Part shown: positions 21,734 through 56,846 of the stretch, piece by piece
Position numbering within the stretch: the first letter of the stretch is position 1
How the letters are laid out: each line of letters starts with the position of its first letter
Source of the DNA: an uncultured Bacteriovoracaceae bacterium
GTDB lineage: Bacteria > Bdellovibrionota > UBA1018
Length of the DNA: 64,000 nt
Assembly: GCA_964563795.1 (NCBI GenBank)
Contig: CAZLYB010000002.1
Span: 190,428-254,427 of the forward strand
Direction of reading: 5' to 3'
Notes under the pieces: generated by a model
What the model saw: the letters and a program-made list of their open reading frames with translations, nothing else
The model's database searches: none
Told to the model about the DNA's origin: nothing
Program-made: the position numbers and the translations under genes

Positions 21734-23269
21734 TTGAAAGTGGGCGAAGTCAAACCGCTTTATTACTTTGAGGTTCCTGAAAATGAGGCGAAAAAATATG
21801 AGTCTGACTTCATTGACGGTGAAACGCTGAATTTCGCGGTTCGTGTGAATCGATCAGGGAAACGATTCATTAGATTTCCGGTGATCCCCCGCGCGGGAAT
21901 GCCGGAAGTAAAGGTAGATGGGGCGAAAAAACCATACACGAAAATCGGCTCTAAAAAATATGCGCTCACTCTTTACGGGGAAGCGGCGTTCGTCACCTCT
22001 CATAACTCCTGGTTAGCTCGGAGCAGTGACAATAAAGAGGTGTTTTTCCTGAAATTGCAGCATTACGACGGGGAAGTCCTCTTTCACGACATAGAAAATG
22101 TCCGACAAACCATCAGCGCAAATGACTATATTGAAAGCGGCTTGAACGAAGCGCGAGAATCCAGGATTTTTTACGCACCTGAGCGATTCGGCGCCGGAAT
22201 TCAAAGTGGCGAGGATTCTCACGCATACAGCATACGATCAGCTAAAGAAATACTTTACGCGGAGGGCTCAATAGAAACATACCCTTTGCATGGAGTTTTA
22301 GCTTCTCCTGATATTCAATATTTTGCTGATCAGTACTCGAAGAATGAAGGGGGGAAAATCACCATTCGGGACTGGATGATCCAGGAGTTTGCCCTAAAAC
22401 TCGGTGAGTTCGCCGCTATCTCACAGATTGAACACGGGATTTGGGGCGTGTTTCACACTCAAAATCTTTTAATCCGAGTTGATCGATCCACTGGGAAAAT
22501 CATCTCTTTCGGGTTTCGAGACGCCAACGATGTGATGATGGATGCCATCGCTAGGATAGAAAAGGGAAGAAAGGTGATTTCTAACGGGGAAAATATTCGG
22601 TGGATCGCTCAACTCAATCAATCTCCCGTCGAAGGCGCTGGATGGGAAACGCCGGAAGCTACTTTCGAATACCTCAGCGATGTGATGAACCAAGCCGCCA
22701 ATCAAACGGACCAACGCGCTTCCCGTCAAATCAGCGCTAGCCGGGAAATGGCGGACGCTTTTTTCAGGGCTTATGAAAATAAAACGAAGCTGATTTTACC
22801 TGCTTTCTCCAAGAATCGACTTAAATTTTCTCCATATAATTCTGATATGTCCCAGGCGTTGAAAGAGGAGTTTTTTCAACTTGAGGGAAAAGCCCTAAAT
22901 CCAAGGGTTGAAATTCAAATTGCCAGCCGATTCAGGTTTCAATCATTTATGGATACACTGACGAAACTCCGCCTCCCGAAGATTGGGAAAAATGACCTCC
23001 TATACTCCCAAGAGCGGCTTCAAAGGATTTTTGATAAAAAAGTCGATGAGACCAAGGTCCACGCTTTCTCCAATGAGGTGATGAAAAATTACGCGAAAGA
23101 TAAATCATTGGGACGGGTAGGCTACGCTTTTGACGGGGAAAAAATTATTTTGTATCAAAAATCAAACTTAAAGCCTTTGGCTTTCGCGTATGATCTTAGC
23201 TCGAAAGAATCTAAAGGAATTACCTCTCGCAAAATCCGCTGCATAGCTTTGAAATTTCATTCCGAGTGA
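21734..23269 (+). CDS. hypothetical protein (511 aa), lower-GC, possible atypical kinase-like fold
   Basis: Long clean ORF preceded by a 295-bp AT-rich intergenic region. No signal peptide. Central segment HGIWGVFHTQNLLIRVDRSTGKIISFGFRDAND loosely resembles the HGDxHxxNxL...xIDF motif of the aminoglycoside/choline-kinase-like superfamily. This is a weak, unverified resemblance. Confidence 0.45.
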   Translation: MKVGEVKPLYYFEVPENEAKKYESDFIDGETLNFAVRVNRSGKRFIRFPVIPRAGMPEVKVDGAKKPYTKIGSKKYALTLYGEAAFVTSHNSWLARSSDNKEVFFLKLQHYDGEVLFHDIENVRQTISANDYIESGLNEARESRIFYAPERFGAGIQSGEDSHAYSIRSAKEILYAEGSIETYPLHGVLASPDIQYFADQYSKNEGGKITIRDWMIQEFALKLGEFAAISQIEHGIWGVFHTQNLLIRVDRSTGKIISFGFRDANDVMMDAIARIEKGRKVISNGENIRWIAQLNQSPVEGAGWETPEATFEYLSDVMNQAANQTDQRASRQISASREMADAFFRAYENKTKLILPAFSKNRLKFSPYNSDMSQALKEEFFQLEGKALNPRVEIQIASRFRFQSFMDTLTKLRLPKIGKNDLLYSQERLQRIFDKKVDETKVHAFSNEVMKNYAKDKSLGRVGYAFDGEKIILYQKSNLKPLAFAYDLSSKESKGITSRKIRCIALKFHSE

Positions 23270-31355: not shown

Positions 31356-32465
31356 CTAAATGCGCATCGGCATGATGACGTAGGTGTGGTTGGCGTGTCC
31401 CACCCCTTTTAAAACGCCAGGGCTGAGCCGATCTTTCAGTTGAAGCTCCAGCACTTCCGTATTCATCACCGCCAAGCAATCGAGCAAGTAGCGCGAATTG
31501 AAACCGATCTCCAGAGGCTCCCCGGAGTAATCCAAATCCAACTCCTCATTGGCATCCCCCATATCCGGGTTGCTGGAGGAGAGAGAGAGGGAACCCGCTT
31601 GGAGGGAGAGTTTCACACCCCGGCTTTTTTCATGAGCGAGCAAGCTCACTCGCTTCAACGCCGCGTTCAGCTCTTCTCGGTTCATCTTGAAGGAAGGGTG
31701 CACTTCTTTCGGGATGACCATTCGGTAGTCCGGATATTCACCCTCGATCAGTCGGATGAAAAGGTGCTCCTCACCCAAGCGAGCGAATAGGTGACCCCGT
31801 TCAAAAGAAAGACCAATGGAGGCTCCCGCTTCAGGAAGCAGCTTTCGAAGCTCCATCAGGCCTTTTTTAGGGATGATCACACCGCGCTTGAGATCCGGGG
31901 CTCCTAAAAAAACCTCTTGATCGACGAACGAAAGGCGATGGCCATCCGTCGCGGTCATCCTCATCACGTTGTTCTCGAGATGCTCAAAGTAAACGCCGTT
32001 CAAGTGATACCGGGTTGCATCGGTTGAAACCGCGAATTGAGTGCGGTCAATCATGTCGATGAGCGCTTCGGTCCGGGTCTCGAGATATTGCTTTGAGGCG
32101 AAATCAGGGAGAGCAGGGTATTCCTCGGCGGGTAAGCTCACGATGTTGAATCGCGACTTTCCGCAGAGAAGCTCGACCCATTGGTTTTCTTTTTGGGAGA
32201 GCTTGATTTCTTTTTCCGGGAGCTCGCGGACGATATCGAGAAAATTCTTAGCGGCGAGGGTCGTTTTTCCGGGCTGAGTTCCTTGAGCCGGAATTGAGAG
32301 CTGGATTCCCACTTCCAAATCTGTGGTGCTAAGGGAAAGGCGATCGCGCTCTACGACGCAGAGGATGTTTCCTAAAATCGGGATCGTGTTTTTTTTCTCG
32401 ACTACGGATTGGACTTTTTGAAGGGCTTCAAGAAGAGGAGCTCTTTGAATCGTGAAGTTCATCAA
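31356..32465 (-). CDS. dnaN: DNA polymerase III beta sliding clamp
   Basis: 369-aa protein of three-domain beta-clamp size. N-terminus MMNFTIQRAPLLEALQKVQSVVEKKNTIPILGNILC is typical. recF lies downstream. Confidence 0.9.
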   Translation of the reverse strand: MMNFTIQRAPLLEALQKVQSVVEKKNTIPILGNILCVVERDRLSLSTTDLEVGIQLSIPAQGTQPGKTTLAAKNFLDIVRELPEKEIKLSQKENQWVELLCGKSRFNIVSLPAEEYPALPDFASKQYLETRTEALIDMIDRTQFAVSTDATRYHLNGVYFEHLENNVMRMTATDGHRLSFVDQEVFLGAPDLKRGVIIPKKGLMELRKLLPEAGASIGLSFERGHLFARLGEEHLFIRLIEGEYPDYRMVIPKEVHPSFKMNREELNAALKRVSLLAHEKSRGVKLSLQAGSLSLSSSNPDMGDANEELDLDYSGEPLEIGFNSRYLLDCLAVMNTEVLELQLKDRLSPGVLKGVGHANHTYVIMPMRI

Positions 32466-32689
32466 AATCTTTATGAACGCTCGCTCGCCTTTTGTCCAGA
32501 CTTCCTCACCTAAAGTATTCTAGAAAAAATTAGGGCATCCATCCGTGGACTTCTTGTGAACGCTCCCTGCTTGTAAGAACCCAAGCCATTCCTAAACTTT
32601 CTAGATGAGGAGGTGCGCACGAATGAAAAACCAAACAAGGGAGGGGGAGTGTCCCCCTTCTTAAAAGAGATATATCTTAATCGTAGTAG

Positions 32690-33150
32690 TAGTAGAGCGT
32701 GTGGATATGTGGATAAGTGGGTTAAGTTTTCAGAGTTGCAGGAAAAACTATGTGGACAACCGTGGGGATAACTTTGGGGATAAAGCCGATGAATTTGTGG
32801 ATAACTTTCAAAAGCAGTGAAGTTTCGAGTTATCCACAGAGTTATCCCCATTCTTTTGTGGATAACTTTTTTAGCCATTTGTTTTAGTCTGATGAAGATC
32901 AAAGAAACGGTAGATCTAAGTGTTTTTTTAAGAGTTATCCCCAAAAACTGAGTTTTTCATTTTTAATTAAAACTCCAAAAACACTGACTACTCAGTGTGG
33001 ATATGTGGATAAGTTTGCAACTTAATGGAATCAAGGCTGAAAAAATTAAAATGATGGGGATAAGTATGGGGATAACTTGTGGATAGCGATGGGGATAAAA
33101 AACTTATCCACAAGTTATCCCCATACTTATCCACAGAGTTATCCCCAAAA
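32690..33150. other. oriC: chromosomal replication origin (oriC): DnaA-box cluster with AT-rich unwinding element
   Basis: Seven perfect TTATCCACA/TGTGGATAA boxes (starting at 32708, 32797, 32830, 32858, 33005, 33105, 33128) and at least 12 single-mismatch boxes (TGGGGATAA, TTATCCCCA, TGTGGATAT, TGTGGATAG) in both orientations within about 450 bp. AT-rich tracts at 32941-32990 and 33030-33055. Directly upstream of dnaN. Confidence 0.8.
33055..33147. repeat. tightly packed DnaA-box array (8 boxes in 93 bp, alternating orientation)
   Basis: tggggataa(33055) tggggataa(33068) tgtggatag(33079) tggggataa(33090) ttatccaca(33105) ttatcccca(33116) ttatccaca(33128) ttatcccca(33139), with 11-13 bp spacing. 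Confidence 0.8.
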
Positions 33151-33206: not shown

Positions 33207-34259
33207 TCAAGGGCGAGGACGAACCGGTTTCGGTTTGGGTTGCGCTTCATCGGAGTGATAGTCTTCGTAAGTCAATGTGCAGGTGGCGTCCTGATAGGCA
33301 GCATTATTCCGGCCGAGATTTTCCCGCGCGATTTTGAAAGGCCCTCTATAGTTCACTAGATTTACCACCCCTCCTTGCGTGGAGCTGCCGATTCTCTTAA
33401 CGGTTCTCTGCCCATTGTAGCCGTCTGAATAGACGGTGAGGTTGTAAGTCAAGCTGTCGTTGGGAGTGCTGCTGTTTTTGAAGACAGAGTTGACCGTCAT
33501 TTGAGGCCATCGACTTCCCATATCATGGGCGTTGAAATGATAAATCCGATAGGAAGGCGCGGGCGTTTGAGGGTTCAACGTTGGCAGGTAATCCAGGATC
33601 AAATGCTTTTTCGTAGCGCCCAAGCTCACCACCGCTTCTTTCCCAGCTTTGAAATCATTTGAATGACAAACGAGCTCCTTGAGTTTGAAGTGCGGGTCCA
33701 TGAAAGGAAGTGAGTTTGGTTCAAGGCGGGCGGTAGGATCATTTGAGGAAGCGGAAGAGGGAATGTTTTCCTTAATCGTATAATCAATGTCGCAAGTAAG
33801 GAGGAGAGCATCGCGCCCCGTTTGATTGCTCTTGAACTGACCATCACTGCCCATGATGTAGCTATTCGCCAAAACCACGCCCCGGTATTTCAACACGGAT
33901 CCCGGCCGATAACGGATGCGTTCATTATGATTGGACCACTCGGAGTCCGTGAAAAAAGTCAGCGCATAACGATCCTTAGCGTCGGTAAATTTGGAATGAA
34001 TGGTGATGTTTTTTAAATCGCAATCCAAAGCTTGGATAGAGAAATTTACGGGATAAGCTCCTTTTCCATCCTGGAAATTCACCAAAACCGAAGCAGAGTT
34101 TTTTTCAAACGAGGAGGAATGAAACGAAACACCCGAATCTTGGGATTCCATCCCGCACGACATTCTCTCGATCTCGCATACTAATGCGGAGGCATAACTA
34201 TAGGAATGAGTAAACAGAGCAAGAGCCGCAACAGCGGAAGCGTTAAGCGTTTTTTTCAT
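33207..34259 (-). CDS. hypothetical secreted protein (350 aa)
   Basis: Signal peptide MKKTLNASAVAALALFTHSYSYASA. Asn/Ser/Thr-rich, with several Cys. GC lower than flanking DNA. No recognisable motif. Confidence 0.45.
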   Translation of the reverse strand: MKKTLNASAVAALALFTHSYSYASALVCEIERMSCGMESQDSGVSFHSSSFEKNSASVLVNFQDGKGAYPVNFSIQALDCDLKNITIHSKFTDAKDRYALTFFTDSEWSNHNERIRYRPGSVLKYRGVVLANSYIMGSDGQFKSNQTGRDALLLTCDIDYTIKENIPSSASSNDPTARLEPNSLPFMDPHFKLKELVCHSNDFKAGKEAVVSLGATKKHLILDYLPTLNPQTPAPSYRIYHFNAHDMGSRWPQMTVNSVFKNSSTPNDSLTYNLTVYSDGYNGQRTVKRIGSSTQGGVVNLVNYRGPFKIARENLGRNNAAYQDATCTLTYEDYHSDEAQPKPKPVRPRP

Positions 34260-34388: not shown

Positions 34389-35519
34389 GTGCGCCGTTTT
34401 TTACTCATTTTCTTATCTTTGAGTTTGAGCTCAGGAGGCTTTGCGGCCAACCCATCTTCCTCGCGTCTTTGTTCATCCGCCTTGGTTGCCGTCTCAGATC
34501 GGATCACTGAGAATGCCGCGCGTAAGGCGGAACAGGCTCTTTTAGCGAAGATTCAGGCGGCGAGGCAAGTTGAACTCCCCGTTCCCGCCCCGATTCGGGG
34601 CGCTCAAATGAGCTACTCAGCGAGATTGGCGATGATGAAGTCGATTCCCGCCGATGAGTATCGCCCGTGGATCACGATGATGAGATGGAGTTTAACGCTC
34701 GTTCTTCATCAAAAAAACGGATCCCTCGATTCTTCGATCGCTTGGGTGATCAGTGAGATGGATAAAGCCCTCTCTCAGTCGAACCTCAGTTACTACAACC
34801 TCATGAAGATGATGGAGGGATATGCGATTGCTTTGAGTTTGGACGGCAAGACGGTGGGAGCGACCAAAGTGGAGCTCAAATTAAAAATGCGGGATCACGC
34901 CATTTTGTTCCCGGAGGTCGCAGTCATTCCCACTCGCACATTCTTCGATCCCGATCAGACCGCTGCGCAATCCGCATTGGATGAAGTCGATTACGTGCCC
35001 GTCGATTTCATATGGGAATTTGACGAACCTTCCGGTTACTCCGCCTTTCTGAGGAAAAAACTGGATCGACCTCTCCGTGTTTACGAGTTCTGGGCGGCGA
35101 AGATTCAGCACTCCGAAAAAGCGGTGCCCATTCATTTTTTCATGAGCGCGTTCGAGCGGCACACGAAAAAAGTTTATGAAGACTTGAGGCAGGAGGTCCA
35201 ATCCTCGAATAATTTTTCGGAGAAGCCGGTCGATCACCTTTTAGTGATGAACCTCATTTGGGAAGAGCTCCATTACGGTCGGGAATCACTGTCGCTGACC
35301 AGGGAAGCCGTATTGAGCAAGGAGAAAATAAAAACGATCAATCTCTTGGCGATTGAAGCCAAGCTGAACCGGCTCGGGTACGAGAAAGGAAAAATTAAGT
35401 CCGATCTTTTGAAGATGATTCAAAAGATCGAGGATATTTTCAAATTCAATCCTCTTTTAACTTTGAATGAGCTCAGGGAAAAAATTCACGGTGAGTGGGT
35501 CGCGTCCCGAAAGAATTAA
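34389..35519 (+). CDS. hypothetical secreted protein (376 aa)
   Basis: Signal peptide [20 protein letters not shown]. Lower GC. Divergent from the 33207..34259 gene. No recognisable motif. Confidence 0.45.
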
Positions 35520-39594: not shown

Positions 39595-40478
39595 CAGGCT
39601 TTCGATTCATAGCGGTGGAAGCCGCGCCCTGTTTTTCGTCCCAGCCATCCAGCAGCGACGTGGTTTTTGAGCAGCGGCGCCGGGCGGTAGCGGGGGTCCC
39701 CCAGTCCTTCGTGCAGGACTTGAAGGATGGCGAGGCACGTGTCGAGTCCGATGAAATCCGCGAGCTCAAGCGGGCCCATGGGTTGGTTCGTGCCGAGCTT
39801 CATCGCAGTGTCGATTCCCTCGGCGCTCGCAACGCCTTCTGAGAGCGCGGTGATCGCTTCGTTAATCATCGGCATGAGGATGCGGTTGACCGCGAAGCCG
39901 GGAAAGTCTTTGGCTTCGACGAAGGTCTTGCCCATTTTTTCTGAGACTGCTCGTACGGTTTGAAAGGTCTCGTCGGAGGTTTGGAGTCCACGGATTCCTT
40001 CCACGAGCTTCATGAGGGGGACGGGGTTCATGAAGTGGATGCCGGCGACGAGCGATGGGCGCTGCGTTTGCGCCGCGATCGCGGTCACGCTGATCGAAGA
40101 AGTATTGGTCGCGAGAATGACGCCTGGGGGGCAAGCGGCGTCGAGCTCCTTGAACAGGCGGTATTTGAGTGCGGGGTTTTCGGTGGCGGCTTCGATGACG
40201 AATCCCGCCGCTGAGAGATCTTTGAGACCCGCCACTGGCTGGATCATGGCTAAGGTTTTGTCGCGATCTGCGGCTTGGATTTTCGCTTTTTCGACGAGCT
40301 TGCTGAGCTGAGCTTCGATCTTGGCCTTGCCCTTTTGAGCGAGCTCAAGGCTCTGGTCAGCGAGTAGGACCGAGAAACCGGATTGAGCCGCGGTTTGGGC
40401 AATGCCGATGCCCATTTGGCCCGCGCCCAGGACGCCGAGCACTCGAGGAAGATTGGATTGAGTCATACTCCAACTCAA
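39594..40478 (-). CDS. 3-hydroxyacyl-CoA / 3-hydroxybutyryl-CoA dehydrogenase
   Basis: 294-aa protein with NAD-binding LGVLGAGQMGIGIAQ, the 3HCDH N- and C-domain pattern (ATNTSSISVT, HFMNPVPLMKLVE). Confidence 0.85.
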   Translation of the reverse strand: MSWSMTQSNLPRVLGVLGAGQMGIGIAQTAAQSGFSVLLADQSLELAQKGKAKIEAQLSKLVEKAKIQAADRDKTLAMIQPVAGLKDLSAAGFVIEAATENPALKYRLFKELDAACPPGVILATNTSSISVTAIAAQTQRPSLVAGIHFMNPVPLMKLVEGIRGLQTSDETFQTVRAVSEKMGKTFVEAKDFPGFAVNRILMPMINEAITALSEGVASAEGIDTAMKLGTNQPMGPLELADFIGLDTCLAILQVLHEGLGDPRYRPAPLLKNHVAAGWLGRKTGRGFHRYESKA

Positions 40479-40515
40479 GTATCCAATGCTTACGTCAAGT
40501 GCAAGGGGTAGTGAA

Positions 40516-41205
40516 TTATTGGCTCACCGGGGGGCAATAGCAGTAATTTAGATTTCCCTCGCATTTTTTAGCGCCAGCTTTTTTAAGTAGCGAAACAATG
40601 GTGTTTCCCATGAAATCCCTAACGACAGCGCCGACACTCGCAAGGTCGGCTTCATCGGCGATCGCATCATCGAGGTCAGAATGAGGTGTACGAATTCGGC
40701 AGGAGAACTTATTGAGGTCGATCGTATTTTTTATATTTTTCAGCCTCATTTTTTTTGATGCCTCCAATAGGAGGTTTACCGCCAAAATCGAGTGACGGCT
40801 GATTGCATAGCCCAACGGGGTATTTGGAGGCAGCATCCCTCTTGAAATCCCTTCCCTGAATGAAAGAGTGTTGATCAGTTGGCTGACTTCATCCAAGAGC
40901 ACTCCATTTTCAGCGAGGAACTCGATGAGTTCAGGATGACACTTAATTTCTTTTCCTTGATTAACCCCTAAATGGCATCCGATCGCCGCATAAGCGATGA
41001 GGTTGAGCCCAAAAACCCTGTCATTTGGAAAAAATTCGCCATTTTGAATCATATCCTGCAGCGCTTTTTTATCACCCCGGTCGATTACATTTTTAATATG
41101 GAGAAGAGGATTCTCCTGAGAAAATGCGCTCCATGAATTCGCTGCAAATGCTGCCAAAACCAAGCCACAACACACCGATTTATTTATTAAACTAAAAAAT
41201 TTCAT
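40516..41205 (-). CDS. secreted ankyrin-repeat protein (lower-GC islet)
   Basis: ATG at 41205 with GGAG RBS; the track ORF begins at a GTG at 41220. Signal peptide MKFFSLINKSVCCGLVLAAFAANSWSA. Ankyrin-like units (NTPLGYAISRHSILAVNLLLEASKK; DRVFGLNLIAYAAIGCHLGVNQG). The region is visibly more AT-rich than its neighbours. Confidence 0.5.
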   Translation of the reverse strand: MKFFSLINKSVCCGLVLAAFAANSWSAFSQENPLLHIKNVIDRGDKKALQDMIQNGEFFPNDRVFGLNLIAYAAIGCHLGVNQGKEIKCHPELIEFLAENGVLLDEVSQLINTLSFREGISRGMLPPNTPLGYAISRHSILAVNLLLEASKKMRLKNIKNTIDLNKFSCRIRTPHSDLDDAIADEADLASVGAVVRDFMGNTIVSLLKKAGAKKCEGNLNYCYCPPVSQ

Positions 41206-41243
41206 TTGCTCCGAATACACTAAAATAGTTAATCAGTGAAGCC

Positions 41244-46656: not shown

Positions 46657-47169
46657 TTATTCTCGGCAGTGGATGTTGCCTGAAAGCTCCAACTCACCGA
46701 TGCAATCCAAGTGAACGCGCCCGCCGCTGCATCTCGCATAAGGAGTCACTCTTACCACTTCAACTCTATCTAACACGTAGGATACGAAATTCATTCCATG
46801 CGCAAAACTGCAAACGTCTCTCAGATATTGCTCTGAGGGAAGATGGTGGACGAAACGGGTATTGATGCAGGAATAAAGAAAGGGTTGCACGTTAACAGGC
46901 CCCTCCACATAGCAAGTGCCATAAGTTTGTCCGACGGTAGATTGGATCCGCTCTTGAAAAAGATCCCCAACATACCGATCTGCGCTTACCTTGACGGGTT
47001 GAGTAGGTATTGAAGGCAGTGTTGATGATGTTTGTTGGGTACCACTGATTCGAGCGGGTCCAACGCCTCGAGTGAGGCCATTAACTGCATTGGCTTCGGG
47101 TGTCTGAACCCAGAGCAAAAATCCCATCGTAAATGATCGAACAAGAATTGAGCGTAGAAGATTTTTCAT
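46657..47169 (-). CDS. hypothetical secreted Cys-containing protein (170 aa)
   Basis: Signal peptide MKNLLRSILVRSFTMGFLLWVQTPEANA, with six Cys. Convergent with dnaA, 12 bp between the two stops. No recognisable motif. Confidence 0.4.
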   Translation of the reverse strand: MKNLLRSILVRSFTMGFLLWVQTPEANAVNGLTRGVGPARISGTQQTSSTLPSIPTQPVKVSADRYVGDLFQERIQSTVGQTYGTCYVEGPVNVQPFLYSCINTRFVHHLPSEQYLRDVCSFAHGMNFVSYVLDRVEVVRVTPYARCSGGRVHLDCIGELELSGNIHCRE

Positions 47170-51937: not shown

Positions 51938-53203
51938 CTAAGGCTTCGTAACCTGTCCGTGATCAATTTCCAGAATGACAACCTTGCCCTCCTGAAAATT
52001 TAGCGCGAGACGGTTCCCTGTCCTTGAAAATGCCATATTTTGAAGTGTCATGCGGGATGTGATGGCGTAAGTCCCTATTCTTTCCGTGCGCAGACTGAGC
52101 AACTCAATCTTATTTAAGCTGGTTTTGACAGCGAGAGTGGAACCATCATCTGAGAGGAGGATTTTCTCCACTTCCCCTCGCACTATGCCTCGACCTAGCC
52201 GCCACGGATCTCCGCTCGCAGCATTTGGAAGATAAGTATGAATATGAATTGTAGTTTTGCGGCCCTCTTCAGCAGCAGGCAGAACTTCGGCGATCACCGG
52301 CGCATGCGCAGCCAGGGTGTATAGACCGGATTTAAGCCTTGGACTTGGAGGCTGGCCGGAAAACAAAGTATAATTCAAAGATTTGCTATCTTCATCCCAA
52401 GGAATTTGAATCAAAAAAGGGCCGCCGAATGGGCCATCGGGATGCCGATCCCATTGCCAGAGCCACTTGCGATCTGGACTCAGCCATGGAGTGGAAATGG
52501 GATGAGCGAAAAGCTTCTGATGCTGAATTTCTTGAGTAGCGCCATTAAGGGTATGAATGAATAATTTAGTCTCAGTTTTTGCGAAAAGAGTGGGTGGGAC
52601 GCCGTTATCTGGCGAAGATTGCACCATTGAAAGGCCAAAAACCGCCTCATTCAATTCGATTATCAGGTTTTGTTCGTGAGACGATGCATTCATCGAAGGC
52701 ACCTGAAACCTAAAAAGCCGAGTTTTTCGGCCCTTCTTCATTTCCACAGAAGCAAAAAAACCAAAATCTTCTGGCCTATAGAGGGAGTCATTGGATTCAA
52801 GATGGATGAGGGTTCCATCCAGGTCCGTCTTAAAAACCTCTTGTTCTTTGACTATATCGTAAACGACGAGACGGGTCAGCGTTTGATGACCGGCGATCGC
52901 GATCGTTTTCCAGAGATAAATAAATTTTGAATAGTTCGAGAAACGAACTGCAGTTGGCGCACCGTCATTCAAGAAAGCGGCTGCTAGCGGCCCGGTTCTA
53001 AAATGAGAAGGCAAGTCTAGCGTCACGGTATGAGTGATCAAGAGCGGGGGCAGTGAAGCAGACTTGCAGGGACTGACGGGTGATGAGCTGCTCGCGTTCA
53101 AGGTTGAATGACTGAAAAAAAGGAACGAAATCCCCAGGAGCGCTCCGTGAGCCCACATTTTTAGTGATGTGAATTGCATTCTTGGCTGCCGTTTTCGGCT
53201 CAA
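51938..53203 (-). CDS. hypothetical secreted protein, beta-propeller-like repeats
   Basis: Signal peptide MQFTSLKMWAHGALLGISFLFFSHS. Repeated strand-turn units (SPDRKWLWQWD, SDDGSTLAV, SRTGNRLAL) resembling TolB/WD40-like propeller blades. Inference only. Confidence 0.4.
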   Translation of the reverse strand: MSRKRQPRMQFTSLKMWAHGALLGISFLFFSHSTLNASSSSPVSPCKSASLPPLLITHTVTLDLPSHFRTGPLAAAFLNDGAPTAVRFSNYSKFIYLWKTIAIAGHQTLTRLVVYDIVKEQEVFKTDLDGTLIHLESNDSLYRPEDFGFFASVEMKKGRKTRLFRFQVPSMNASSHEQNLIIELNEAVFGLSMVQSSPDNGVPPTLFAKTETKLFIHTLNGATQEIQHQKLFAHPISTPWLSPDRKWLWQWDRHPDGPFGGPFLIQIPWDEDSKSLNYTLFSGQPPSPRLKSGLYTLAAHAPVIAEVLPAAEEGRKTTIHIHTYLPNAASGDPWRLGRGIVRGEVEKILLSDDGSTLAVKTSLNKIELLSLRTERIGTYAITSRMTLQNMAFSRTGNRLALNFQEGKVVILEIDHGQVTKP

Positions 53204-53274
53204 GGGGGCGCTAAGTCAATGAAATTCAATTTTGCTTCCCAAGCCGCCTGAGCAAGGTTATTTCTACAAAACTT

Positions 53275-55152
53275 ATGAATTTTGACGTTTTAGTGATTGG
53301 GGGAGGTCATGCGGGCTGCGAAGCGGCTCATGCCGCCGCTCGCCTTGGCTGTTCCACAGCGCTCGCCACTTTGAACCCGGACCGGATTGGATTTCTCTCG
53401 TGCAATCCCGCGATGGGAGGACTTGCGAAAGGTCAGCTCGTCAAAGAAATCGACGCTTTAGGCGGGGTGATGGGAAGGATCACTGACCGCGCGGCGATTC
53501 AATATCGGCGGTTGAATTCAAGTAAGGGGCCAGCGGTTCGGTCTTCACGAGCTCAATGCGACAAAGCCCGCTATTCGAACGAGATGAAATCGTTTTTGAA
53601 ACAGGTTCCTCGCTTGGAATTTTTGCCAGTTGAAATTACTGAGATCTTGGTCGAAGGCGGTAGGGTTGCCGGAGCCATTACTGCAGAAAGGACCCGGATC
53701 GAAGCTAAAACAGTAGTAATTACATCAGGTACTTTTTTGAGAGCAATCATGCACACGGGGTCAGATCAACTCGAGGGAGGAAGATTAGGGGATTCTTCCG
53801 CCAAGGGTTTGAGTCAATCTCTCGAGCGAATGGGTTTTCGGTTGAGACGGCTTAAAACAGGGACTCCGCCTCGACTTCACCGTGAAAGCATTGATTGGAC
53901 GCGCGTTGCCCCTCAAGACGGAGATTTAAATCCTCTCCCTTTTTCATTTTATCACCGACCTCATCCCTTTCCTTATCTCCCCCAGATTCAGTGTTTTATC
54001 ACTTATACGAACGAGCGGACCCATGAGGTGATTGAACAGAACTTTGCTCGCTCCCCTTTGTTTACTGGGATCATTCAGGGAGTTGGACCTCGGTATTGCC
54101 CTTCAATCGAAGACAAAGTGAAGCGTTTTCGCGACAAGACGCGTCATCAGCTTTTTTTAGAGCCAGAGGGATTGGAAACTCCAGAGATCTACGTAAATGG
54201 AATTTCAACGAGCCTCCCGCGTGATGTTCAAGACGCATTTGTGCGCACCATCGAGGGGCTGGAAAACGCTGTTTTTATGAAGCACGGGTATGCCGTGGAG
54301 TATGACAGCGTTGATGCACGGCAATTGAAGCGCACTTTGGAATCAAAAGAAATCCCTGGTTTATTTTTCGCGGGCCAAGTCAACGGAACTTCGGGCTACG
54401 AAGAAGCTGGTGCCCAAGGGTTGATGGCTGGGATTAACGCCGCTCTTGTTGTTCAAGAGCGTGATTCTTTTACTTTAGGAAGACATGAAGGGTACATCGG
54501 CGTTCTAGTGGATGACCTCGTTTTAAACGGAGTGGATGAGCCCTATCGTATGTTCACTTCGCGCGCTGAGTATCGGCTTTTGCTCCGTGAAGATAACGCA
54601 GATCTTCGCCTCGGTGAAAAAGCGGGAAAACTAGGGCTTTTGTCGCCCTTAGAACAAGAGCGGTTGCAGTTTAAAGCACAAGCGATTCAAGAAGAGCGAG
54701 AGCGACTGGAGTCCACTTTCTTTTTCCCCGTTCAAACCGCCGAATACTTTGAGTCGCGGCAGTGGCCCCTCCTGAAAGATCGAATTTCTGCTTCGACGCT
54801 CTTAAGACGTCCTGAGGTAGGATGGGCAGAATTAGAAGCACTGGGTCTGAAGAGATTTGAGGGGAGTGATTCAAAAGAACTTGCCTTTGAAATCAAGGAG
54901 CAAGTTGAGATCCAAATCAAGTATGAGGGGTATATCAAGAGGGATCTCGAGCTCCTTAAAACCGTAAACCAGTATGAAAACTTAGAAATCCCTCACGACA
55001 TTGATTATGGGGTGATCCCAGGACTTTCAAATGAAATAAAGGGAAGGCTTTCGGATACAAAACCTGAAACCCTTGGGCAAGCAAAGCGAGTCCCAGGAGT
55101 TACGCCAGCCGCAGTAGCGAATCTCATGATTTTTCTCAAGATGTCAGCATGA
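53275..55152 (+). CDS. mnmG: tRNA uridine 5-carboxymethylaminomethyl modification enzyme MnmG (GidA)
   Basis: 625-aa protein with the FAD-binding N-terminus FDVLVIGGGHAGCEAA and conserved GidA core (NPAMGG, GPRYCPSIEDK), plus the C-terminal MnmE-interaction domain. Confidence 0.95.
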   Translation: MNFDVLVIGGGHAGCEAAHAAARLGCSTALATLNPDRIGFLSCNPAMGGLAKGQLVKEIDALGGVMGRITDRAAIQYRRLNSSKGPAVRSSRAQCDKARYSNEMKSFLKQVPRLEFLPVEITEILVEGGRVAGAITAERTRIEAKTVVITSGTFLRAIMHTGSDQLEGGRLGDSSAKGLSQSLERMGFRLRRLKTGTPPRLHRESIDWTRVAPQDGDLNPLPFSFYHRPHPFPYLPQIQCFITYTNERTHEVIEQNFARSPLFTGIIQGVGPRYCPSIEDKVKRFRDKTRHQLFLEPEGLETPEIYVNGISTSLPRDVQDAFVRTIEGLENAVFMKHGYAVEYDSVDARQLKRTLESKEIPGLFFAGQVNGTSGYEEAGAQGLMAGINAALVVQERDSFTLGRHEGYIGVLVDDLVLNGVDEPYRMFTSRAEYRLLLREDNADLRLGEKAGKLGLLSPLEQERLQFKAQAIQEERERLESTFFFPVQTAEYFESRQWPLLKDRISASTLLRRPEVGWAELEALGLKRFEGSDSKELAFEIKEQVEIQIKYEGYIKRDLELLKTVNQYENLEIPHDIDYGVIPGLSNEIKGRLSDTKPETLGQAKRVPGVTPAAVANLMIFLKMSA

Positions 55153-55799
55153 ACCTCTTAGACCAAGAACTTAAAGCGGTTGGAATCGAGCTTTCAAGCG
55201 AAGCTGAGCAGAAACTCACGCGTTTTTATGAACTCCTTAAGGAAGAGAATAAAAAACAAAACCTCACTCGCTTAATCGAGCCCAGAGATTTTATAGAAGG
55301 GCATGTTTACGACGCTTGGAAGCTGCATCACTCTGGATTTCTCCATTCTCCTTCACTTGATTTAGGAAGTGGGGCAGGGAGTCCTGGCCTGATCTGCGCA
55401 CTCTTTAATCCCCAGCATCAGTGGGTGCTTACTGATTCAGAAAAAAGAAAGGCTGCTTTTTTAATCCAGGCTCAGAAGCAGCTCCAACTCGAGAATTGCC
55501 AAGTATTCGCAGATCGTGCAGAGAGGCTTCTTAAAAGCAAACCCGTTCCCTGTATTACGGTGCGTGCAGTAGGAACAGTTTCTAAAATTTTTGCGCTTCT
55601 GAGCACATGTTCTACGTGGAACACACTCCTTTTACTCAAAGGCCCTCGATGGCAAGAAGAATGGACTGAATTTCAGGGCGGCTCCTTTCGTTCGCAATTA
55701 AAAATCGAGGCCGTTCAAAACTACGAAGTAGGAATTGAAAGAAAAAAACGACTACTCATCAACCTAAAAAGAGTTCCACGTGGAACAAAAAGGGAATGA
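55149..55799 (+). CDS. rsmG: 16S rRNA (guanine527-N7)-methyltransferase RsmG (GidB)
   Basis: 216-aa protein with SAM motif LDLGSGAGSPGL. 4-nt overlap with mnmG, the classic gidA-gidB pair. Confidence 0.85.
   Translation: MNLLDQELKAVGIELSSEAEQKLTRFYELLKEENKKQNLTRLIEPRDFIEGHVYDAWKLHHSGFLHSPSLDLGSGAGSPGLICALFNPQHQWVLTDSEKRKAAFLIQAQKQLQLENCQVFADRAERLLKSKPVPCITVRAVGTVSKIFALLSTCSTWNTLLLLKGPRWQEEWTEFQGGSFRSQLKIEAVQNYEVGIERKKRLLINLKRVPRGTKRE
55608..55623. promoter_or_regulatory. parS-like palindrome (3 mismatches to TGTTTCACGTGAAACA)
   Basis: tgttctacgtggaaca inside the 3' half of rsmG; shares the core with the stronger site at 55772. Confidence 0.35.
55772..55787. promoter_or_regulatory. parS-like perfect 14-bp palindrome GTTCCACGTGGAAC
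   Basis: agttccacgtggaaca is a perfect inverted repeat around CACGTG and has a 13/16 match to the universal parS consensus. It lies in the last codons of rsmG, about 200 bp upstream of parA, a typical parS location. Confidence 0.5.
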
Positions 55800-55939
55800 G
55801 TATTCAAAAATATTTATTAAAAACATCTTGCACCGGCGGTGATTCATGGCTAACCTGAAAGAGTAGTCGAAATTGATGATTCAAAAAAAGTTTCTTCTGA
55901 TGAAAAGGTTATTCGCACCAACCACAAACCACAGACCTC

Positions 55940-55970
55940 GGGGCGCCGTAACTGGCGCCCCTTCTGGTTT
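55940..55970 (+). terminator. Rho-independent terminator after rsmG
   Basis: ggggcgcc-gtaact-ggcgcccc, an 8-bp GC stem, followed by ttctggtttt. Confidence 0.6.
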
Positions 55971-55991
55971 TCAGGGGATAAGGGGAATCCA

Positions 55992-56846
55992 GTGGGCAAA
56001 GTGATTTCTGTTGCGAACCAAAAGGGTGGAGTGGGTAAGACCACCACCACGATTAATTTAGCCGCCTCTCTGGCGCTTGCTGAGAGAAAAACATTGGTCA
56101 TCGATTTTGATCCTCAAGGAAATGCGACGTCAGCATTGGGAATCGATCGAGCTTCAATCGAACCTGGCAAAACCATTTATCACGCTCTCATTGGGCATAC
56201 GCCAATGCCTGAAGTGATTCGACCAACCGAGATGGATTGCTTGTTCATCGCACCCGCAACGGGCGATTTGACCGGCGCTGAGATTGAGCTGGTAAGCGCT
56301 TTTTCGCGAGAAATGAAGCTCAAAACGGCGCTTCAAGAAATTCGTAAACAGTATGACTATATTTTGATTGATAGCCCGCCGTCGCTGGGATTGCTGACGG
56401 TGAATGCGCTGACGGCCGCGGATAGTTTTTTGGTGCCGCTCCAGTGTGAATATTTCGCTCTTGAAGGTCTGAGTCAGCTTTTGAAAACCGTCTCGCTCAT
56501 TCGACAAAGCACGAATCCCCAGCTCGCTGAAGAGGGGATTGTGCTCACGATGTTTGATGGGAGAAACAACTTGGCGAATGAAGTCGTCAAGGAAGTTCGC
56601 ACCCATTTCAGCCAGCAAGTGTTTGAGACAGTCGTTCCGCGGAACGTGCGATTGAGCGAATGCTCAAGCTTCGGCAAGCCCATCCTGCTTTATGACATTG
56701 ATTCAAAGGGCTGCCTGGCTTATTTGAACCTCGCGAAGGAAGTCCTGGCACGAAATCAACCCGAGCAGGGTTTAGCGGTTTCAGCCGGATTGAATCATTC
56801 GTCGCAGCCGGGTCCGGAGCTAGGAATGGCTCAAGTCAGTAATTAA
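55992..56846 (+). CDS. parA: chromosome partitioning ATPase ParA (Soj)
   Basis: GTG start. Deviant Walker A KGGVGKTTT, ParA/MinD fold (DFDPQGNAT, ILIDSPPSLG). Confidence 0.9.
   Translation: MGKVISVANQKGGVGKTTTTINLAASLALAERKTLVIDFDPQGNATSALGIDRASIEPGKTIYHALIGHTPMPEVIRPTEMDCLFIAPATGDLTGAEIELVSAFSREMKLKTALQEIRKQYDYILIDSPPSLGLLTVNALTAADSFLVPLQCEYFALEGLSQLLKTVSLIRQSTNPQLAEEGIVLTMFDGRNNLANEVVKEVRTHFSQQVFETVVPRNVRLSECSSFGKPILLYDIDSKGCLAYLNLAKEVLARNQPEQGLAVSAGLNHSSQPGPELGMAQVSN

What the first reader, a model, noticed from the sequence alone, without database searches (positions are those of the whole stretch)
40479..41243. Secreted ankyrin-repeat protein in an AT-rich islet between mnmE and the beta-oxidation operon
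Ankyrin repeats are uncommon in free-living bacteria and are typical of host- or prey-interacting effectors. This 229-aa protein has a Sec signal peptide and at least two ankyrin-like units, and sits in an AT-rich islet between mnmE and a beta-oxidation/methylmalonyl-CoA mutase cluster. That is consistent with acquisition; it may be an extracellular protein-interaction factor.
Basis: inference. Interest (0 to 1): 0.5.

Follow-up and report, generated by a model that had tools for sequence, protein, structure and literature searches.

The report
Orphan exported protein with weak ankyrin-like repeats
A small gene found only in this bacterial lineage has been inserted between two housekeeping genes; it probably encodes an exported protein with three or four badly degraded ankyrin-type repeats, which makes it a mildly interesting orphan and not a demonstrated effector.

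Summary
The ORF is real: window 40516..41205, minus strand, 229 aa. It fills a 765-bp AT-rich gap (GC 43.5%; ORF GC3 45%, neighbours 67-78%) between mnmE and hbd-ech-acd-mcm. In 17 Oligoflexia/Bdellovibrionota relatives mnmE is followed directly by hbd, and none encodes a homologue. So it is a lineage-specific insertion, not a conserved periplasmic component.

It has no close homologue among about 15 billion proteins.

The ankyrin call is only partly supported:
- The native sequence gives one Pfam hit, below threshold (Ank_4, 15.3 bits; cut-off 22.7).
- A home-made ankyrin-repeat HMM scores it 17.3 bits. None of 2000 shuffles exceeds 7.5, and it is the only hit among 853 six-frame segments of the window.
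- Removing a 12-residue loop between Cys77 and Cys89 brings out five ANK-clan hits, all still below cut-off.
- Structure prediction is inconclusive: pLDDT 39 without an alignment, and 61.7 with an ankyrin-based alignment.

The Sec signal peptide was judged by eye only.

Best reading: a Sec-exported, cysteine-containing, degenerate ankyrin-like binding protein, probably periplasmic, with no identified partner. An extracellular effector role is neither supported nor excluded. Interest is modest.

The parts
40479..41243 (.). Inserted AT-rich interval between the hbd start and the mnmE stop (765 bp, 43.5% GC)
   Evidence: In 17 relatives the same junction is only a short spacer with no gene.
40516..41205 (-). 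Coding sequence of the 229-aa orphan protein (stop codon TAA at 40516-40518)
   Evidence: The ORF length exceeds all 5000 shuffles. Only itself was found among about 15 billion proteins at close range.
41209..41212 (-). GGAG Shine-Dalgarno-like motif 3 nt upstream of the ATG. It lies downstream of the alternative GTG, which favours the ATG start.
   Evidence: Read directly from the sequence.
41119..41205 (-). Putative Sec signal peptide, residues 1-29 (MKFFSLINKSVCCGLVLAAFAANSWSAFS)
   Evidence: Hydropathy (core window 2.6). Cleavage motifs AFA (19-21) or AFS (27-29) judged by eye. No predictor was run.
41014..41115 (-). ANK-like unit 1, residues 31-64 (ENPLLHIKNVIDRGDKKALQDMIQNGEFFPNDRV), resembling an N-terminal capping repeat
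   Evidence: Residues 30-80 align in ANK register with P0005, a genuine ANK protein (37% identity over 51 residues). pLDDT is 73-87 in the alignment-guided model.
40882..41013 (-). ANK-like unit 2, residues 65-108, with a loop inserted between its two helices
   Evidence: Pfam Ank_4 matches residues 88-107. After the loop is deleted, Ank_3 (21.0 bits), Ank_2 (20.6) and Ank_4 (18.4) match this unit. The home-made HMM gives 3.3 bits at residues 89-101.
40939..40977 (-). Cys77...Cys89 segment (CHLGVNQGKEIKC): the loop insertion that interrupts unit 2, bracketed by two cysteines (possible disulfide staple)
   Evidence: Sequence. The effect of deleting it is shown. The disulfide is inferred, not shown.
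40729..40830 (-). ANK-like unit 3, residues 126-159 (PPNTPLGYAISRHSILAVNLLLEASKKMRLKNIK), the best-preserved repeat
   Evidence: Home-made ANK HMM 9.7 bits at residues 128-149. Pfam Ank 14.5 bits in the edited fragment. hhalign probability 65%, E=6e-5. BLASTP to P0005 over residues 125-182. pLDDT is about 85.
40567..40686 (-). Possible fourth, very degenerate unit, residues 174-213 (only ...IVSLLKKAGA is recognisable)
   Evidence: HMM score -0.3 bits at residues 203-212. pLDDT is low for most of it. Weak.
40519..40566 (-). Cysteine-rich C-terminal tail, residues 214-229 (KCEGNLNYCYCPPVSQ). Together with Cys169 this gives six cysteines in the mature protein.
   Evidence: Cys at 77, 89, 169, 215, 222, 224. 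No known sorting motif was recognised (own knowledge).

Best explanation
The interval holds a genuine protein-coding gene that this lineage gained after it split from its nearest sampled relatives. The gene sits in the short spacer of a conserved yidC-mnmE-hbd-ech-acd-mcm gene string. It lies on the same strand, 38 nt after mnmE and 37-49 nt before hbd, and no terminator was predicted. It is therefore probably transcribed together with these housekeeping genes (inferred).

The product is likely exported by Sec: an N-terminal signal peptide is followed by a mature part of about 200 residues with six cysteines, which suits an oxidising compartment (inferred). The mature part is a helical repeat protein. 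Three recognisable units (residues 31-64, 65-108, 126-159) and one doubtful unit (174-213) follow the ankyrin pattern but are strongly degraded. Unit 2 is interrupted by a cysteine-bracketed loop (shown at sequence level; the fold is not shown).

The most likely mode of action is that of small Sec-exported bacterial ankyrin proteins. It would stay in the periplasm or cell envelope and bind another exported protein, as an inhibitor/'immunity' factor or as a helper. The partner is not encoded next to it and remains unknown (inferred by analogy with Bd3460 and AnkB).
For: Real gene:
- A stop-free run of 238 codons in 43.5% GC DNA; 5000 shuffles reached at most 188.
- A GGAG motif precedes the ATG.
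- Codon-position GC is 0.50/0.36/0.45.

Insertion:
- mnmE is followed directly by hbd in L001-L010, L036-L041 and L048.
- tblastn found no match to the ORF in any of those loci.
- There were no matches in the phage or plasmid collections.

Orphan:
- Only the protein itself was found, in a singleton cluster.
- The exhaustive search of 1.84 billion representatives gave nothing closer than E=3e-6.

ANK-like:
- Pfam Ank_4, E=0.026.
- Five ANK-clan families match after the Cys-bracketed loop is deleted, with the best E=4e-4.
- 17.3 bits against a 33-residue ANK HMM, with 0 of 2000 shuffles reaching it.
- Sole hit among 853 six-frame segments of the window.
- In-register alignments to P0005, a genuine secreted ANK protein.
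- hhalign probability 65%.

Periplasmic-binder analogy:
- Bd3460 is a 23-kDa signal-peptide-bearing ANK protein that is kept in the periplasm and inhibits secreted DD-endopeptidases. One of these, Bd0816, is encoded elsewhere in the genome (PMC4686830).
- AnkB is cited as a periplasmic ankyrin-like protein needed for KatB activity (reference list of PMC12754779).
Against: - No ANK profile reaches its curated cut-off, even after the sequence was edited.
- There is no sequence match to any PDB chain at E<=10, so none to Bd3460 or AnkB.
- The best three hits of the exhaustive search are repeat-inflated false positives, so the E-value of the P0005 hit is also suspect.
- The signal peptide was not checked with a predictor.
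- No partner gene, catalase, DD-endopeptidase or secretion system lies in the 64-kb window.
- Low GC3 is shared by some core genes, so composition alone does not prove foreign origin.
Confidence: 0.45

Rival explanations
1. Extracellular or prey/host-directed effector. After Sec export the protein would be passed across the outer membrane, for example by a type II system or during prey contact. It would then bind a target protein of prey or host.
For: - The organism belongs to Oligoflexia/Bdellovibrionota, a group rich in predators (record titles).
- Several other low-GC ORFs without Pfam matches and with signal-peptide-like N-termini lie in the same window. One of them (46657..47169) is also a lineage-specific insertion. 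This suggests a fast-evolving secretome.
- ANK proteins are classic interaction modules of host-associated bacteria (statement in PMC4686830).
Against: - A Sec signal gives periplasmic delivery only.
- No secretion-system gene is nearby.
- The well-known translocated ANK effectors use type IV or type I signals and not Sec (own knowledge).
- The probable co-transcription with housekeeping genes does not suggest contact-induced expression (inference).
- The lifestyle of this particular lineage is unknown.
Confidence: 0.2
2. Not an ankyrin protein. It would be an exported orphan helical protein of another, possibly new, fold, whose ANK-like motifs (TPLGYA..., ...LLLEA, ...KKAGA) are convergent or fortuitous.
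For: - All Pfam ANK scores are below the cut-offs.
- There are no PDB sequence hits.
- Foldseek finds nothing even for the ANK-guided model.
- Only about 100 of the 199 mature residues superpose on ANK structures.
- Residues 107-123 and 160-193 have pLDDT below 50.
Against: - The ANK hypothesis passes composition-matched and same-genome controls by a wide margin.
- Three separate segments align in the correct ANK register.
- The only Pfam families that ever appear belong to the ANK clan.
- The helix pairs predicted without any alignment (33-42/46-54, 63-75/91-99, 130-152) coincide with the proposed units.
Confidence: 0.25
3. Non-functional leftover. The ORF would be an unexpressed or decaying remnant of a foreign ankyrin gene that happens to remain open.
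For: - The repeats are degenerate, there are no homologues with which to test selection, the composition is atypical, and the Shine-Dalgarno spacing is short.
Against: - The reading frame is intact across 229 codons in AT-rich DNA, where stop codons arise easily.
- An intact signal-peptide-like N-terminus and an even number of mature cysteines are present.
- The ORF fills 690 of the 765 inserted bases, on the operon strand.
Confidence: 0.07

Closest known systems
Bd3460, the periplasmic ankyrin self-protection protein of Bdellovibrio bacteriovorus (PMC4686830)
   Same: Same phylum-level group. Both are small (about 23 kDa against about 25 kDa for this precursor), carry an N-terminal signal peptide and consist of little more than ankyrin-type repeats. 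Bd3460 also protects against one target (Bd0816) encoded elsewhere in the genome, so an unlinked partner has a precedent.
   Different: Bd3460 has six largely regular 33-residue repeats; this protein has three or four degenerate ones with inserted loops. Bd3460 sits next to its target gene bd3459; this gene sits between mnmE and hbd. There is no detectable sequence similarity to any PDB chain. No DD-endopeptidase is in the window. The function here is untested.
AnkB of Pseudomonas aeruginosa (katB-ankB operon; Howell et al. 2000, cited in PMC12754779)
   Different: AnkB is encoded in an operon with catalase katB and is induced by peroxide. No catalase is near the present gene, and there is no sequence similarity.
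Generic bacterial ankyrin-repeat proteins, several with hydrophobic signal-like N-termini (e.g. P0005, P0006, P0011, P0013 from metagenome-assembled genomes)
   Same: P0005 gives the best genuine sequence alignments found: residues 30-80 at 37% identity and 125-182 at 33%, both in ANK register. P0005, P0006, P0011 and P0013 also begin with hydrophobic signal-like N-termini.
   Different: Those proteins pass all Pfam ANK cut-offs by a wide margin (Ank_2 E=1e-72 for P0005) and have many regular repeats. The present protein passes none, and it has Cys-bracketed and other loop insertions plus a Cys-rich tail.
Translocated ankyrin effectors of intracellular bacteria (Legionella/Coxiella Ank proteins, Anaplasma AnkA)
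   Different: Those effectors are delivered by type IV (or type I) secretion and lack a Sec signal peptide (own knowledge). Here a Sec-type N-terminus is present and no such secretion system is in view.

Membership tests
Ankyrin repeat superfamily (Pfam clan: Ank, Ank_2, Ank_3, Ank_4, Ank_5) | Profile match at or above the curated gathering score | tested here: not met
   Native protein: Ank_4 only, 15.3 bits against 22.7. Fragment with the 12-residue loop deleted: Ank_3 21.0 against 22.3, Ank_2 20.6 against 27.3, Ank_4 18.4 against 22.7, Ank 14.5 against 21.1, Ank_5 13.5 against 27.
Ankyrin repeat superfamily (Pfam clan: Ank, Ank_2, Ank_3, Ank_4, Ank_5) | Tandem units of about 33 residues carrying the TPLH...helix-turn-helix...LLxxGA motif, beyond chance | tested here: inconclusive
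   17.3 bits against a 33-residue ANK HMM; 0 of 2000 shuffles reach it. Sole hit among 853 window segments. Three segments are in register. hhalign probability is only 65%. The units are irregular (34, 44 and 34 residues) and are separated by a 17-residue linker.
Ankyrin repeat superfamily (Pfam clan: Ank, Ank_2, Ank_3, Ank_4, Ank_5) | Stacked helix-hairpin solenoid fold | tested here: inconclusive
Bd3460-type periplasmic self-protection ankyrin proteins | Gene adjacent to the secreted DD-endopeptidase it neutralises | tested here: not met
   The neighbours are MnmE and 3-hydroxyacyl-CoA dehydrogenase. No peptidase was found among the window ORFs scanned.
Bd3460-type periplasmic self-protection ankyrin proteins | Sequence homology to Bd3460 | tested here: not met
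   phmmer against all PDB chains, which include the Bd3460 structures described in PMC4686830, found no match at E<=10.
Bd3460-type periplasmic self-protection ankyrin proteins | Signal peptide and periplasmic retention | not testable with these tools
   The N-terminus looks like a Sec signal by eye. No predictor or experiment was available.
AnkB-type catalase helper | Operon with a katB-type catalase | tested here: not met
   No catalase domain was found in any scanned ORF of the window.
Type IV-translocated ankyrin effectors | No Sec signal; C-terminal translocation signal; a Dot/Icm or VirB system in the genome | not testable with these tools
   A Sec-like N-terminus argues against membership. 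The rest of the genome was not available, and no T4SS gene is in the window.

The most novel reading that the evidence does not exclude
This lineage may seed conserved, probably constitutively transcribed, intergenic junctions near its replication origin with small low-GC genes for exported orphan proteins. Two such insertions lie within 6 kb: this ANK-like gene between mnmE and hbd, and a 170-aa gene between dnaA and an aldehyde dehydrogenase gene. The ANK-like one could be a new, cysteine-stapled class of periplasmic inhibitor that protects the cell against its own unlinked secreted weapon, or that is delivered to prey.
Probability: 0.1. Interest if true: 0.5.

Novelty: new member of a known kind. 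Interest (0 to 1): 0.27.

Why it matters
If the protein is a periplasmic ankyrin-type binder, it would be a second, sequence-unrelated case in Bdellovibrionota of the Bd3460 principle: a small exported repeat protein guarding the cell against its own secreted enzymes. Its partner would then point to a lineage-specific secreted activity.

More generally, it shows how far an ankyrin repeat protein can drift below profile thresholds and still be recognisable with controls. It also documents gene gain inside a very conserved origin-proximal operon.

As it stands, it is one uncharacterised orphan with no partner, no expression data and no confident structure, so the practical value is small.

Tried and rejected
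1. Word-indexed homology search with the protein alone returned only the protein itself. Look-up of its contig found nothing on record. The cluster look-up showed a singleton without a name.
2. The exhaustive search gave four weak hits. P0002, P0003 and P0004 are highly repetitive non-ANK proteins whose scores are inflated by repeats, so I rejected them as homologues. Only P0005 was kept.
4. Profile searches seeded with the query plus P0005, and then with nine sequences, returned only generic ankyrin proteins and no intermediate relatives. I used them only to build a control HMM and an alignment.
5. The two small ANK genes next to P0005 in L068 are not closer relatives.
6. PADLOC, PHROGs and NCBIfam gave no hits. 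tblastn against the phage and plasmid collections gave no match. There is thus no sign of a defence system, a prophage or a plasmid origin.
7. I looked for mobile-element signatures around the insert. There are no convincing flanking direct or inverted repeats and no terminator, and the single promoter-like site is at chance level. A short motif (GCAAATGGAT) shared by the L001 and L002 spacers has partial look-alikes at both ends of the insert, but this is too short to count as a target-site duplication.
8. I searched the metagenome contigs for closer relatives of the genome in order to date the insertion. None is closer than 54% MnmE identity.
9. A lipoprotein reading was rejected by eye: there is no lipobox before Cys12 or Cys13.

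Full report
**What is at the coordinates**

The interval 40479..41243 is exactly the gap between the start of the hbd ORF as listed (TTG at 40478) and the stop of mnmE (41244). It contains one long ORF on the minus strand, 40516..41205. This is 229 aa from the ATG, which has GGAG three bases upstream. A GTG five codons further upstream would give 234 aa, but it lies before that ribosome-binding motif.

The interval is 43.5% GC. Its longest stop-free run is 238 codons, whereas 5000 shuffles gave a mean of 81 and a maximum of 188. The frame is therefore not open by chance. The ORF has GC 43.8% and GC3 45%; the seven genes around it have GC3 of 67-78%.

**Neighbours**

- Pfam confirms MnmE immediately upstream.
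- Downstream lie a 3-hydroxyacyl-CoA dehydrogenase, an enoyl-CoA hydratase, an acyl-CoA dehydrogenase, the methylmalonyl-CoA mutase large subunit and its B12-binding subunit.
- YidC and DnaA lie on the other side of mnmE.
- All genes from yidC to mcm are on the same strand.
- The spacers around the ORF are 38 nt (to mnmE) and 37-49 nt (to hbd), and no terminator-like site was found.
- Co-transcription with these housekeeping genes is therefore likely, but it is inferred.

**Lineage and synteny**

- The closest MnmE relatives in 185,579 species genomes are metagenome-assembled Oligoflexia/Bdellovibrionales genomes, at only 43-54% identity.
- The metagenome contig collection holds nothing closer.
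- In ten genome loci and seven metagenome loci the order yidC-mnmE-hbd-(ech)-acd-mcm is kept, and mnmE is followed directly by hbd.
- In the ten genome loci the stop-to-start spacers are 11-47 bp. In the seven metagenome loci the tblastn gaps are comparably short.
- tblastn with the ORF finds nothing in any of the 67 loci fetched around mnmE relatives.
- The ORF is therefore an insertion into a conserved junction and not a conserved component. Because the nearest relatives are distant, the gain can only be dated to 'after the split from the L001/L002 lineage'.

**Composition caveat**

- The orthologous regions of the relatives are 37-48% GC, and the window as a whole is 54.5%. The ORF has the composition of the wider clade and not of its own genome.
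- Some core genes in the window are equally AT-rich at third positions: rsmG 0.39, mnmG 0.46, recF 0.53, parA 0.54.
- Low GC alone would not prove foreign origin here. The synteny carries the argument.

**Homologues**

- The word-indexed search of 5.8 billion clusters returned only the protein itself, a singleton from an NCBI contig of 264,575 bp.
- The exhaustive HMMER scan of 1.84 billion representatives gave four hits at E<1e-3.
- Three of these are extremely repetitive non-ankyrin proteins and are best read as repeat-inflated false positives.
- The fourth, P0005, is a 540-aa protein with massive ANK signal (Ank_2, E=1e-72) and an N-terminal signal-like sequence.
- BLASTP aligns query residues 30-80 to it at 37% identity without gaps, and residues 125-182 at 33%. 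Both alignments are in the ankyrin register.
- There were no matches in the phage or plasmid collections or in PADLOC, PHROGs, NCBIfam or PDB sequences.

**Is it an ankyrin-repeat protein?**

- By curated profiles, no. The native sequence gives a single hit, Ank_4, at 15.3 bits against a cut-off of 22.7 (E=0.026).
- I noticed that the second putative unit is interrupted by a segment bracketed by Cys77 and Cys89, so I deleted twelve residues there. The edited fragment then matches five ANK-clan families (Ank_3 21.0, Ank_2 20.6, Ank_4 18.4, Ank 14.5, Ank_5 13.5 bits). All remain below their cut-offs, and the edit was chosen after the fact.
- For an unbiased control I built a 33-residue ANK HMM from 1377 repeats of unrelated ankyrin proteins. 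The mature sequence scores 17.3 bits; 2000 composition-matched shuffles reach at most 7.5.
- Among all 853 six-frame segments of the window, this ORF is the only hit (E=2.9e-4, next best 0.56).
- The best unit is NTPLGYAISRHSILAVNLLLEA (residues 128-149).
- hhalign against eleven ankyrin proteins gives 65% probability for residues 127-171.
- The resemblance is therefore real in the statistical sense, but the repeats are badly eroded. My estimate that the fold is ankyrin-type is about 0.7.

**Structure**

- With an alignment of 35 ankyrin proteins the mature part reached pLDDT 61.7 and pTM 0.48. Units 1 and 3 were confident. Residues 107-123 and 160-193 (77-93 and 130-163 in mature numbering) were below 50.
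- Foldseek against the PDB found nothing significant.
- Because the alignment consisted of ankyrin proteins, this is a consistency check and not independent evidence.
- Structure prediction therefore neither confirms nor refutes the call.

**Export**

- The N-terminus MKFFSLINKSVCCGLVLAAFAANSWSAFS has two lysines, a 13-residue hydrophobic core (hydropathy 2.6) and AFA/AFS sites that obey the -3/-1 rule.
- There is no lipobox, and the core is too short for a membrane anchor. This is judged by eye, because no predictor was available.
- The mature part has six cysteines (77, 89, 169, 215, 222, 224), which fits an oxidising compartment. Two of them bracket the loop in unit 2, and three sit in a short C-terminal tail.

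**Most likely mechanism**

- A Sec signal takes a protein only as far as the periplasm of a diderm bacterium.
- The characterised small Sec-exported bacterial ankyrin proteins act there on the cell's own exported enzymes.
- Bd3460 of Bdellovibrio is 23 kDa, has a signal peptide and is retained in the periplasm. It sterically blocks the predator's DD-endopeptidases, including one encoded at another locus (PMC4686830).
- AnkB of Pseudomonas is cited as a periplasmic ankyrin-like protein required for catalase KatB activity (reference in PMC12754779).
- By analogy I favour a periplasmic binder/inhibitor or helper whose partner is encoded elsewhere.
- This protein is not a member of either family. 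It has no sequence similarity to them, no adjacent endopeptidase or catalase, and fewer and irregular repeats.
No secretion system is in the window, and classical translocated ANK effectors do not use Sec signals (own knowledge).

**Verdict**

This is a genuine, lineage-specific orphan gene for a probably exported, degenerate ankyrin-like protein. The 'acquired' inference is supported by synteny. The 'ankyrin' label is plausible but below threshold. The 'effector' function is speculation. Novelty is that of a very divergent new member of a known kind, and interest is modest (0.27).

**Seen in passing**

- A second low-GC ORF with a signal-peptide-like N-terminus (46657..47169) is inserted between dnaA and an aldehyde dehydrogenase gene. 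These two genes are adjacent in the two closest relatives.
- Twenty DnaA boxes cluster at 32700-33147, upstream of dnaN and 12 kb from dnaA. They mark the replication origin, and they show that the 144-aa 'ORF' there is spurious.

Noticed in passing
window 46657..47169 (-): A second lineage-specific insertion. It is a 170-aa ORF with GC3 0.43, a signal-peptide-like N-terminus (MKNLLRSILVRSFTMGFLLWVQTPEANA) and no Pfam, PADLOC or PHROGs match. It lies between dnaA and an aldehyde dehydrogenase gene. In the closest relatives, L001 and L002, these two genes are convergent neighbours only about 20-30 bp apart.
   Followed up: partly
window 32700..33147: Twenty DnaA boxes (TTATCCACA, at most 1 mismatch) cluster in the AT-rich gap upstream of dnaN (31356..32465 -). 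The whole window has 23 boxes against 6.4 expected. This is very probably oriC, next to dnaN-recF-gyrB and 12 kb from dnaA. The 144-aa 'ORF' at 32510..32944 (GC3 0.37) is then not a gene.
   Followed up: partly
window 33207..34259 (-), 34389..35519 (+), 21734..23269 (+), 51938..53203 (-): Further low-GC3 ORFs without Pfam matches above threshold. Three of them (33207, 34389, 51938) have signal-peptide-like N-termini, and 51938..53203 shows only faint WD40-like hits. Together with the ANK-like gene they suggest a fast-evolving set of exported proteins scattered among origin-proximal housekeeping genes.
   Followed up: no
window 51938..56846, and L001-L010: Compositional mosaic. The housekeeping genes mnmG (GC3 0.46), rsmG (0.39) and parA (0.54) are much more AT-rich than most core genes of the window (GC3 about 0.64 on average, up to 0.80). 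The orthologous regions of all ten relatives are 37-48% GC, against 54.5% for the window. The lineage may have shifted to higher GC unevenly, or these blocks may have been exchanged with lower-GC relatives.
   Followed up: no
window 41203..41212 and 40484..40494; L001 7411..7420; L002 7393..7402: The mnmE-hbd spacers of the two closest relatives share GCAAATGGAT. In the window, GCAAATG overlaps the ORF's start codon at the left end of the insert, and GCATTGGATAC lies near its right end. This could be a remnant of the split target site, but it is too short to distinguish from chance.
   Followed up: partly
L068 2028..5342: The best genuine ANK match (P0005, 540 aa) sits in a roughly 40% GC metagenome-assembled genome (GCA_902589845.1), between two further small ankyrin-repeat genes (263 and 216 aa). 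Neither of these is detectably related to the query.
   Followed up: yes
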